Shown here piece by piece: positions 52,971 to 56,795 of a stretch of 64,000 nucleotides of DNA. Location of the stretch: NCBI GenBank assembly GCA_951406725.2, contig OX597843.1:8494001-8558000 (forward strand), in the 5' to 3' direction. Made by a program: the position numbers and the translations under genes. A model generated the notes under the pieces. That model saw nothing but the letters and a program-made list of their open reading frames with translations. It ran no database searches and was not told the origin of the DNA. How positions within the stretch are numbered: the stretch's first letter is position 1; each line of letters opens with the position of its first letter. Source of the stretch: Octopus vulgaris (Eukaryota).

Positions 52971-53599
52971 TTTGGTAAATGGAAAACGAGAGTGAATGTG
53001 TCAGAAGACAGTATGGTTGTGATGGTGGTGGTGGTGGTGGTGGTGGTAGTGGTGGTGGTGGTGGTAGTGGTGGCGGTGGTTGTGGTAGTGGTTGTGGTGG
53101 TGTAGGATCGGTGATGGTGGTGTCGGTGGTAATGATGGTGGCGGTGGTATGGTGGTGGTTGTGGTGGTAGTAGTGGTGGTAGTTATGTTGGTGGTTTGTG
53201 GTGGTGGTGGTGGTGGTGGTGTTACGCTTCCAGGTCAGACTCAATCTAGAAAACGTCAGCTAAAAGGCTTTCCAAATGTGACCACCCCGACGTTTGGTTC
53301 CCCTGTCACAATATCCTTCCAATGGGTCCTTCATATTATTTCAAAATGAGATGACAGAATATTTGGCTGCTATTTCTAGCAGTTTGATCAACGCATAGAC
53401 GTCCCCCTATTGGTTATACGCTGTTATCGCTGCTGTTGTTCTTTAGCCACAGGACAACCCAGGTGGAGCGAACCACCTGTTTAAGAAGTTCCAACCTTGA
53501 CCATCATGTAATTAAGTGTATGCTGGAGAACAATATCAAATATTACGTTTATATATTTGTTATGCAAGGTTCTTGATGTGAAGTCGTGTGTTGAAACAG

Positions 53600-54240
53600 A
53601 TATTGTTATATTTCGGAATGGTCATTTTGCCAGTTTAGCCAATAAAAACACACGCACTATAAATTTGGTGTTACTTTGCTTCAGTGTTATTTATTTTTTA
53701 CATTAATCTTAATCTTATTTCGGCCAAAGTTCTTTCGTCACAATCCTGTGACCTCATCAGTGGTCCTTTGCTTTCTTCTTTCTTATTTGTGTGTCTCTCC
53801 TTACTAACGGTCAGCCATTATTATTAATATCAGGAAATCAATATTAAAAAATTCTTCAGGAAGATATATATGTGTGTAGAAAAACTTGGGTTTTTTAGTA
53901 ATATATATTTTATAATATATTATTATTGTTGTTGTATTTCGGAATGGTCACTTTGCCAGTTTAGCCAATAAAAACACACGCACTATATATTTGGTGTTAA
54001 TTTGCTTCAGCGTTATTTATTTTTTACATTAATCTTAATCTCATTTCGGCCAGAGTTCTTTCGTCACAATCCTGTGATCTCATCTGTGGTCCTTTGCTTT
54101 CTTCTTTCTTATTTGTGTGTCTCTTCTCACTAACGGCCAGTCAATAAATAACGCTGAAGCAAATTAACACCAAATATATATTGCGTGTGGTTTTATTGGC
54201 TAAATTGGCAAAATGACCATTCCGGAATACAACAATATCA
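53600..54240 (-). mobile_element. Hammerhead-bearing 326-bp tandem repeat plus inverted partial copy (retrozyme / Penelope pseudo-LTR-like)
   Basis: ggaatggtca at 53615 and 53941; HHR motifs at 53722-53766 and 54048-54092; 54143-54238 is the reverse complement of the unit start. Confidence 0.8.
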
Positions 54241-54657
54241 AATATGTTATTTGTATTTTGACTGCTATTCCTAGCATATCTAGCTACGATGTAGGGGGGG
54301 GCCTCACCCATTGGTTCATACATATATACATACATACATAAGACAGTAGGATGTGACTAGAGATAGATTTGGCTGCTATTTCTAGCAGGTCTGCTTACAG
54401 TCTCTCGCATCAGCTAATACATACATGATGGCTGCACACCTCGTGTTCGAATATTACCACCGCCAGATCAGAAGTCCCACACATGGGTCTTACTTTGTTT
54501 TTCAAGCGATGCCTGTGCATAATGATTTTTTTTTTATAGTGAGGAAAGGATCTGAACAAATCCAATCTCACTCACAGAACATGGACAACATAAAGTCGAA
54601 AAGAAGAACCAGTCTACATCATCGAATATTGTGTGTCATCGGAATGGAGAAAGCGAA

Positions 54658-56185: not shown

Positions 56186-56391
56186 ATTAACAGGGCTTTT
56201 TTTAAAAGAGGTTCCAAAGACATTTGCGCAGAGTTTGTAAAAGGCAGTAATTCCAGTAACTATTTGCTAGTGACCCAACATCTCTCTCTTCGGTCTGCTT
56301 GCGAAGAAGCAATGCAACATGCGTGAAAACAAGAAGTAAGGGAAGAGGAAAATTATACAGTTCTATATTCAAGAGATGAGGAATTATTTAA

Positions 56392-56570
56392 TTATTTACA
56401 TTATTTACATTTGACGGATATTTGTCCTCATTTTGTTTGTTGTTAACACAACGTTTCGGCTGATATACCCCCCAGCCTTCATCCGGTCTCTTGGGGAAAT
56501 TTCGAACCTGGGTTCTCATTCCTAAGGTATTTTTCTATGTTATTATTATCATTATTATTATTATTATTAC

Positions 56571-56652
<82 letters not shown>

Positions 56653-56795
56653 TACATTATTTACATTTGACGGATATTTGTCCTCATCTTGTTTGTTGTT
56701 AACACAACGTTTCGGCTGATATACCCTCCAGATTTCATCAGGTGTCTTGGGGGAAATTTCAAACCCGGGTTCTCATTCCTAAGGTATTTTTCGAT
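56392..56795 (-). mobile_element. Hammerhead-bearing 256-bp tandem repeat
   Basis: Two copies spaced by (TTA)n; consensus gacac CTGATGA a ggctg..cagcc GAAAC GTT gtgtt at 56445-56489 and 56701-56746. Confidence 0.8.

What the first reader, a model, noticed from the sequence alone, without database searches (positions are those of the whole stretch)
53600..54240. 326-bp tandem HHR units with an inverted third partial copy
Cleavage at successive HHRs would release a 326-nt monomer, as in non-LTR retrozymes. Copy 1 keeps CUGAUGA with a CUU site; copy 2 has CAGAUGA with CUC, so the consensus is canonical. The adjacent inverted partial copy matches the known arrangement of Penelope pseudo-LTRs.
Basis: partly seen in the sequence, partly recalled or inferred. 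Interest (0 to 1): 0.7.

Follow-up and report, generated by a model that had tools for sequence, protein, structure and literature searches.

The report
Penelope mini-element confined to one chromosome
This is a small protein-less offshoot of a Penelope-type jumping gene, stitched together from the parent's end piece (with a predicted self-cutting RNA) and a scrap of a second repeat; every copy found lies in one 6-million-base stretch of one chromosome while the parent is spread over the genome, so it likely spread by short hops.

Summary
The repeat, both hammerheads and the inverted arm are real (minus strand). The two copies share only 218 nt; the 326-nt period includes a 108-nt spacer. The 218 nt are the 3' pseudo-LTR and ORF start of an abundant coding Penelope-like element (1,309-aa RT + GIY-YIG; Neptune/Nematis-type linker). 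The spacer derives from a second hammerhead-bearing repeat. The chimeric 326-nt unit is nevertheless a true non-coding unit: 11 junction copies at 6 insertions with unrelated flanks, up to 3.4 units in tandem, 13 of 14 complete cores CUGAUGA. Ends, target duplications and inverted arms match the parent's insertions, so it was most likely copied in trans by the parent's protein. All 11 junctions lie on contig C30 (0.76% of the genome, 3.2-9.1 Mb); the parent is genome-wide. Retrozyme status is unproven: the hammerhead is PLE-type, copy 2 has two core changes, the monomer folds no better than shuffles, and cleavage and circles were not testable. PLE-derived retrozyme-like arrays are published (bioRxiv 2026), and this scan noted similar ones elsewhere in this genome. 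The chimeric origin and the local confinement are the new points.

The parts
53529..53543 (+). Target-site duplication, left copy (15 bp)
   Evidence: 9 of the 15 bases also match the element's own first 3'-end site, so 6 bases are unique to the duplication
53545..53602 (-). 3' tail of the terminal unit, between the parent's two preferred 3'-end sites; part of the first 27 codons of the parent ORF (ATG at 53625, stop at codon 22 in this copy)
53603..53820 (-). Copy 1: 3' pseudo-LTR segment of PLE family A (218 nt)
   Evidence: 93% to the pLTR of coding copies
53722..53766 (-). Hammerhead 1, type I, PLE layout: helix I 3+2 bp, CUGAUGA, extra G, helix II 6 bp, GAAA, helix III 2 bp, CUU; predicted cut between 53727 and 53726
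   Evidence: cleavage not tested
53821..53928 (-). 108-nt AT-rich spacer derived from the 3' part of a second hammerhead-bearing repeat (family B); replaces the parent's ORF and 3' UTR
   Evidence: 81-87% to family B over about 100 nt
53929..54146 (-). Copy 2: same pseudo-LTR segment, 5'-truncated at the inversion joint; start codon changed to GTG
54048..54092 (-). Hammerhead 2, degenerate: CAGAUGA core and G to A at the base of helix II; CUC site, predicted cut between 54053 and 54052
54143..54239 (+). Inverted arm: last 97 nt of the pseudo-LTR, ending at the first 3'-end site; no hammerhead; 4-nt overlap with copy 2
54231..54245 (+). Target-site duplication, right copy (15 bp)

Best explanation
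It is a non-coding mini-derivative of a coding Penelope-like retrotransposon, built of the parent's pseudo-LTR and a spacer from a second repeat family, and it was likely copied in trans by the parent's RT-endonuclease, mostly into sites near its source. Shown: unit anatomy, parent identity, spacer origin, 6 insertions with unrelated flanks, ends at the parent's two 3'-end sites, confinement of all copies found to C30. Inferred steps: (1) a template jump during one reverse transcription (or nested insertions at the same AT-rich site) joined pLTR-spacer-pLTR+tail, a miniature of the parent's pLTR-ORF-pLTR tandem; (2) transcription gave multimeric RNA that keeps the start of the ORF, where the protein starts copying; (3) the endonuclease cut both strands of AT-rich DNA with a 13-15 bp stagger, each 3' end primed copying of one RNA from site 1 or site 2, and the two cDNAs joined head to head by microhomology, giving sense arm plus inverted arm; the second RNA was sometimes an ordinary parent transcript; (4) hammerhead cleavage is predicted to be slow and not needed, since up to three intact motifs were copied through; (5) spread stayed local, most simply because the non-coding RNA was picked up near its site of synthesis (the weakest step, about even odds).
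For: Parent: all 30 loci fetched with the GIY-YIG protein query carry the same pLTR segment (86-98% pieces) and three carry 1,311-1,312-codon frames in tandems of about 4.6 kb. The protein has RT and GIY-YIG similarity below Pfam cut-offs (E 5e-4, 7e-4) and a CX4CXXC linker. 3' ends: 102 of 107 pLTR pieces in 74 parent loci end at q320-335 (56) or q379-384 (46), the two-site pattern shown in vitro for a lizard PLE (PMC11167929); 9 of 10 arms in the 6 chimeric insertions end at these sites. Target duplications of 15 bp (window) and 13 bp (L067), a (TA)n target at L066, none found at L063-L065. Inverted arms at 4 of 6 loci; at L066 and L067 the arm has the parent's CUGAUGC variant while the sense arm is chimeric with CUGAUGA; at L063 both arms are chimeric and their last units differ at 2 of 325 sites. 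A rare loop variant (14 exact matches in the genome) is shared by both window copies and the last unit of L067, 5.4 Mb away. Confinement: 11 of 11, 9 of 9 and 2 of 2 pattern matches on C30; the parent motif has 198 exact matches, the first 100 listed spread over C1-C14; 0 of 150 parent protein matches on C30. Both spacer joints are bridged by contigs in other runs (X2, X18), so the unit is not an assembly artefact.
Against: No source locus was identified: none of the 6 continues into the ORF beyond the tail, and in the lizard element the minimal RNA reaches well past the start sites (PMC11167929). Target duplications are missing at 3 of 6 loci, and L065 ends inside the hammerhead, not at a start site. 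Unit variants are mosaic and partly shared within loci, which DNA-level conversion also explains. Target duplications and inverted arms would also be kept if the spacer had been patched into older parent insertions. Local retrotransposition has no precedent in my searches. n is 6 loci in one assembly; patterns miss copies with indels or more than 2 mismatches.
Confidence: 0.6

Rival explanations
1. DNA-level patching: the spacer-plus-pLTR cassette spread by ectopic recombination or gene conversion into ordinary family-A insertions that already lay nearby on C30, perhaps after the family's endonuclease cut them, followed by tandem duplication.
For: Explains confinement directly (distance dependence of ectopic repair is recalled knowledge). 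L065 begins with 65 nt of ordinary parent upstream sequence; L066 and L067 have ordinary inverted arms. Units share variants within loci, and L063 units alternate between two haplotypes.
Against: Both arms of L063 are chimeric. None of the 14 complete hammerheads in chimeric units has CUGAUGC although 47 of 69 parsed parent motifs do (a query-biased sample). The rare loop variant is in both window copies and in L067. At L066 only 43 nt of homology precede the spacer. Two arms of different variants also occur in an ordinary insertion (L012).
Confidence: 0.2
2. A true non-LTR retrozyme: paired hammerheads release a 326-nt RNA that is circularised and copied round the circle by the PLE enzyme, entered from a parent or tail-bearing RNA.
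For: Fixed 326-nt period, up to 3.4 units; 13 of 14 cores canonical while the youngest coding subfamily carries CUGAUGC; 2 of 6 sense arms begin 1-4 nt before the predicted cut (L063, L064); size and 30% GC fit the class (PMC7229834).
Against: Units inside one array are not identical (3-5 differences in 324 at L063, alternating; 14 in 218 here). The tail lies outside the monomer. Circular fold z -0.12, -0.59, -0.24 and +0.31 for four monomers against 40 shuffles each. In parent loci 4 of 38 internal 5' ends fall at q199-205, about 1.3 expected, so no clear pile-up at the cut. Eight of nine frog retrozyme dimers did not cleave in vitro (bioRxiv 10.64898/2026.07.22.740005).
Confidence: 0.15
3. 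Only the partial tandem and inverted pseudo-LTR of a truncated coding PLE, or copies spread by segmental duplication.
For: 218 of 326 nt are parent pLTR; the inverted arm is standard for PLEs (PMC8557442).
Against: The spacer is absent from the 4,679-nt parent unit and from 74 of 74 parent loci examined; the same two joints recur at 6 loci whose flanks differ directly at the element ends.
Confidence: 0.05

Closest known systems
Animal non-LTR retrozymes (Cervera and de la Pena 2020, PMC7229834; Li, Clavereau and Pollet 2026, bioRxiv 10.64898/2026.07.22.740005)
   Same: Non-coding tandem units of about 300 nt, low GC, one type I hammerhead per unit, long target duplications; homology to a PLE terminus, as shown for 21 of 57 Xenopus families; dimers and multimers there are also reported as enriched in few regions.
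   Different: PLE-type rather than canonical ribozyme; 11 junction copies rather than hundreds or thousands; chimeric spacer from a second family; tail outside the monomer; monomer not highly self-paired; expression and circles not shown.
Pseudo-LTRs of C-terminal EN+ Penelope-like elements, Neptune/Nematis type (Craig et al. 2021, PMC8557442; hammerheads: Cervera and de la Pena 2014, PMC4209133)
   Same: Partial tandems, inverted 5'-truncated arm, optional tail, hammerhead with long helix II, an extra base before helix II and a minimal helix III; the parent has the CX2-5CXXC linker.
   Different: The ORF and 3' UTR (about 4.3 kb) are replaced by 108 nt; the tail is about 55 nt rather than 30-40. 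Neptune versus Nematis was not settled by a tree; 'Neptune' rests on a recalled motif.
Poseidon of Anolis carolinensis, PAc (Frangieh et al. 2024, PMC11167929)
   Same: Two internal reverse-transcription start sites in the first part of the ORF that define the tail, cuts on both strands of AT-rich DNA, hammerhead not needed for insertion in vitro.
   Different: Different clade; here the predicted cut lies about 100 nt upstream of the ATG, not inside the ORF; at the window 9 bases of the target match the start site, whereas PAc primed without homology.
Non-autonomous Chlamys PLEs such as MRC1 (passage in PMC8557442)
   Same: Non-coding PLE derivatives that share the parent's 3' end, form pLTRs and head-to-tail multimers.
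   Different: Algal, from the N-terminal EN clade that lacks canonical hammerheads; no confinement to one chromosome is mentioned in the passage seen.

Membership tests
Non-LTR retrozyme | Non-coding tandem units of about 170-400 nt, low GC, dimers to multimers | tested here: met
   326-nt unit, 30% GC, 1.1-3.4 units at 6 loci; reading from the start codon stops after 13 codons
Non-LTR retrozyme | Complete type I hammerhead in consecutive units | tested here: met
   Met at L063, L064, L067; 13 of 14 cores CUGAUGA; not met at the window itself, where copy 2 has two core changes
Non-LTR retrozyme | Canonical ribozyme layout (helix I about 6 bp, helix II about 4 bp), as opposed to the PLE variant | tested here: not met
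   Helix II 6 bp, extra base before it, helix I 3+2 bp; layouts as described in PMC4209133
Non-LTR retrozyme | Highly self-paired monomer | tested here: not met
   Circular fold z between -0.6 and +0.3 for 4 monomers, 46-49% paired
Non-LTR retrozyme | Self-cleavage and abundant circular RNA | not testable with these tools
   Only assembled contigs were available
Non-autonomous Penelope-like element | 3' end shared with an autonomous PLE of the same genome | tested here: met
   275 nt at 93% to pLTR and ORF start of a family with 1,309-aa RT + GIY-YIG frames
Non-autonomous Penelope-like element | PLE insertion anatomy: partial tandems, inverted 5'-truncated arm, optional tail | tested here: met
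   Inverted arm at 4 of 6 loci, tail at 4 of 6 sense arms, 9 of 10 arms end at the parent's two sites
Non-autonomous Penelope-like element | Independent insertions with target duplications | tested here: inconclusive
   Unrelated flanks at 6 loci; duplications at 2, microsatellite target at 1, none at 3; conversion into older insertions not excluded
Non-autonomous Penelope-like element | Mobilisation in trans by the parent protein | not testable with these tools
   Inferred from shared ends and mixed-arm insertions
Neptune clade (parent element) | RT, CX2-5CXXC linker, C-terminal GIY-YIG in one ORF | tested here: met
   this layout is shared with Nematis (PMC8557442)
Neptune clade (parent element) | Placement in an RT tree with named references | not tested
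   The homologues returned carry no clade names

The most novel reading that the evidence does not exclude
A natural record of local retrotransposition: a chimeric non-coding RNA born by a template jump between two ribozyme-bearing retroelement families is captured by the Penelope protein at its site of synthesis and reinserted on the same chromosome over several generations of copies, sometimes paired with a parent RNA on the other DNA strand. Penelope proteins would then load non-coding passengers in the nucleus, and retrozyme-like arrays would begin as local clusters.
Probability: 0.3. Interest if true: 0.75.

Novelty: new variant of a known kind. Interest (0 to 1): 0.45.

Why it matters
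That animal retrozyme-like arrays come from Penelope pseudo-LTRs is published as a phylogenetic inference. Here the parent is in hand with intact 1,309-aa frames, the joints that made the mini-element can be read base by base, and the family is small enough to follow each insertion. Retrotransposons are generally expected to insert without regard to where the donor lies (recalled knowledge); six insertions within 6 Mb of one small chromosome (chance about 2e-11 by length, 3e-7 if C30 took 5% of insertions) need another explanation. If it is local retrotransposition it says where the PLE protein meets its RNA; if it is conversion it shows how cassettes spread among copies. Parent ORF plus mini-RNA is also a ready pair for an in vitro trans-mobilisation test.

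Tried and rejected
Rfam: no hammerhead family matched; PLE-type variants are known to escape descriptors, so this was not counted against the motif. Monomer folds of the ribozyme regions were not better than shuffles (z -0.45 to -1.47). Pfam on the whole parent protein gave 0 families; on halves RVT_1 and GIY-YIG below cut-off; PDB sequence search gave nothing useful. No RNA holder was listed on record; runs guessed to be RNA hold the family-A pLTR, and two (X2, X5) hold one spacer-spanning contig each, but contigs cannot show expression, strand, ends or circles. A replicate of local spread was sought with another mini-tandem (340-nt unit, C14): its joint was found only in that one array, 2 of 43 rows. 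No ORF was found for family B: the parent protein and 120 homologues gave one weak hit (E 0.046) in 44 loci. No pile-up of parent 5' ends at the predicted cut. The tallies printed count overlapping loci several times and were not used; counts were taken from rows L001 and L063-L067 and from the non-redundant set (L068, L081, L117, L136 dropped as duplicates; pieces cut by a locus edge dropped). Segmental duplication was rejected because flanks differ at the element ends; the middle of the flank comparison was cut from view, and the visible part showed only other repeats. Paper searches for local hopping of Penelope (2 unrelated papers, listing only), 'local retrotransposition' (0 papers), octopus Penelope hammerhead and chimeric non-autonomous PLEs found no description of this element or of such confinement; subscription journals are not covered. 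Earlier scan notes by sequence and by words returned nothing.

Full report
Coordinates. The element reads on the minus strand. I number it q1 = window 53928, so the unit is q1-326 and the tail q327-384 (to 53545). The window is G000:C30:8494001-8558000 in a 2.8-Gb genome of 227 contigs. The parent protein is 99% identical to a database protein labelled Octopus vulgaris.

1. The observation. Two direct copies of 218 nt lie 326 bp apart, 94% identical, and an inverted 97-nt piece follows at 54143-54239. Each direct copy has a type I hammerhead: helix I of 3+2 pairs, core, one extra G, helix II of 6 pairs, GAAA, a 2-pair helix III and the cut site (numbering and pairing rules recalled). Copy 1 has CUGAUGA and CUU. 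Copy 2 has CAGAUGA and CUC and also G to A at the base of helix II. A descriptor finds copy 1 and nothing in 200 of 200 shuffled windows. Rfam finds neither. A 15-bp direct repeat brackets the whole structure.

2. The shared 218 nt are a pseudo-LTR. The best genome matches beyond C30 cover only q110-330 and have another upstream sequence. One of them (L062) follows a frame ending in a GIY-YIG domain. That protein has 10,201 first-look candidates, 150 scored, many identical, with open frames up to 1,312 codons. All 30 loci fetched carry the pLTR, and L098, L100 and L102 show pLTR-ORF-pLTR tandems of about 4.6 kb. [quoted passage not shown] That linker marks Neptune and Nematis PLEs (PMC8557442, passages). 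The ATG is at q304, so the tail is the start of the ORF. Of 107 pLTR pieces in 74 parent loci, 56 end at q320-335 and 46 at q379-384. This is the two-start-site pattern shown in vitro for the lizard element PAc (PMC11167929, parts 1-2 of 4 read).

3. The 326-nt unit is still a real unit. It occurs at six places: 3.17, 7.53, 7.60, 7.74, 8.55 (window) and 9.14 Mb of C30. L063 has 3.4 sense units interrupted by a SINE-like insertion (type recalled) and a chimeric inverted arm; L064 has 2.4 units; L065 has 2.3 after an ordinary parent piece. The spacer is absent from the parent unit and from 74 of 74 parent loci. Its best matches outside C30, 81-87% over about 100 nt, are the 3' part of a second dispersed repeat, family B, which has its own hammerhead with a palindromic helix III, two classes of 3' end, and both orientations in 11 of 44 loci. 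Family B looks PLE-like, but I found no ORF for it. Both ends of the spacer carry the same AT-rich word of family B, and the upstream pLTR stops at the parent's first start site, so the chimera fits a template jump or two insertions at the same site (inference). Contigs of other runs bridge each joint by the tool's 31-letter rule (X2 the one at 53820, X18 the one at 53928), and X5 and X17 cover parts; these four runs carry four organism codes.

4. How the copies were inserted. Nine of 10 arms end at one of the parent's two sites; L065 ends inside the hammerhead. Target duplications are 15 bp (window) and 13 bp (L067); L066 sits in (TA)n; L063-L065 show none. Four of 6 have an inverted arm. At L066 and L067 that arm carries the parent's CUGAUGC variant and, at L067, parent upstream sequence, while the sense arm is chimeric; at L063 the last units of both arms differ at 2 of 325 sites. 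I read this as two RNAs copied from the two cut strands. A loop variant with 14 exact matches in the genome is shared by both window copies and L067. Against a simple story: no locus runs on into the ORF, so no clear source copy was found, and variants are mosaic within and between loci.

5. The ribozyme. Thirteen of 14 complete motifs in chimeric units have CUGAUGA, 12 have CUC, 2 have lost the closing pair of helix II by C to U (rows L001, L063-L067). In the parent sample 47 of 69 motifs have CUGAUGC, and nearly all copies next to the young ORF have CUGAUGC with CUU. The layout is the PLE variant, reported to work as a dimer and weakly (PMC4209133, parts 1-2 of 4 read); in PAc the ribozyme needed the protein and was not needed for insertion (PMC11167929). 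The cut-to-cut monomer is 326 nt, 30% GC, and folds as a circle at -40.5 kcal/mol against -39.9 +/- 5.0 for 40 shuffles; three other monomers gave z -0.59, -0.24, +0.31. Described retrozyme circles are highly self-paired and abundant (PMC7229834, 8 passages and section 14 read). For the circle reading: two sense arms start 1-4 nt before the predicted cut, but parent copies show no clear pile-up there (4 of 38). Units within L063 alternate between two haplotypes, which fits a duplicated dimer or a 652-nt template better than one 326-nt circle.

6. Confinement. Whole-genome pattern scans with 2 mismatches put 11 of 11 spacer-to-pLTR joints, and 9 of 9 plus 2 of 2 spacer-core matches, on C30. C30 is 21.2 Mb, 0.76% of the genome; five further loci on it by chance is 2.5e-11, or 3e-7 if it took 5% of insertions. 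The parent is dispersed: 0 of 150 protein matches on C30, 2 of 43 rows, and 198 exact matches of the parent motif, of which the 100 listed cover C1-C14. The spacer falls into two sub-types whose members are not neighbours, so more than one round of copying stayed on C30. Local retrotransposition and conversion into nearby copies both remain open; I favour the first because of L063, L066 and the absence of CUGAUGC from chimeric units. A second mini-tandem on C14 did not spread at all, so there is no replicate.

7. Comparison and verdict. PLE origin of animal retrozymes is argued in bioRxiv 10.64898/2026.07.22.740005 (parts 1-3 of 5 read, supplements not seen), which also reports multimers enriched in few regions and no cleavage for 8 of 9 dimers. 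Non-autonomous PLEs with pLTRs and tandems are known in algae (PMC8557442, passage). Earlier notes of this scan describe similar arrays on other pieces of this genome (unchecked). So the kind is known. It works like a non-autonomous PLE and meets the operational definition of a retrozyme at three sister loci, but two retrozyme features were tested and not met, so I do not file it as one. What is new in my searches is the two-family chimeric unit with an intact parent and its confinement to 6 Mb. Interest 0.45.

Noticed in passing
window 37363 (+) and 47476 (-): Two more hammerhead motifs pass the descriptor, with helix II of 7 and 6 pairs; families not identified.
   Followed up: no
window 56391-56502 and 56647-56758 (-): Another direct repeat, 256 bp apart, around an (AAT)n tract; each copy has a decayed PLE-type hammerhead with a palindromic helix III. 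A third family, likely a second mini-tandem.
   Followed up: partly
L069-L105, pLTRs next to the young ORF: The youngest coding subfamily has CUGAUGC in place of CUGAUGA together with a CUU site, so it seems to have spread with a changed catalytic core.
   Followed up: partly
L061 = G000:C14:7978956-7979925: An independent mini-tandem of the same family, 340-nt period, joined through (AT)n; found at one locus only.
   Followed up: yes
G000:C6:28669788 and 28670284: Two parent-type hammerheads 496 bp apart on one strand, possibly another mini-tandem; three more lie within 22 kb on C7 at 112.47-112.49 Mb.
   Followed up: no
L042-L060, L158-L182 (family B): Abundant older repeat (1,542 first-look candidates) with a long-helix-II hammerhead, an upstream partial duplicate about 320 nt away, two 3'-end classes and inverted arms; no ORF found.
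   Followed up: partly
window 53361-53382 and 54367-54388: A 22-bp exact direct repeat brackets the insertion about 160 and 130 bp outside its ends; probably part of an older repeat that served as target.
   Followed up: no
L100:1278-5204 (-): The parent ORF has a long Asn/Ser-rich low-complexity stretch of about 260 residues between its N-terminal part and the RT.
   Followed up: no
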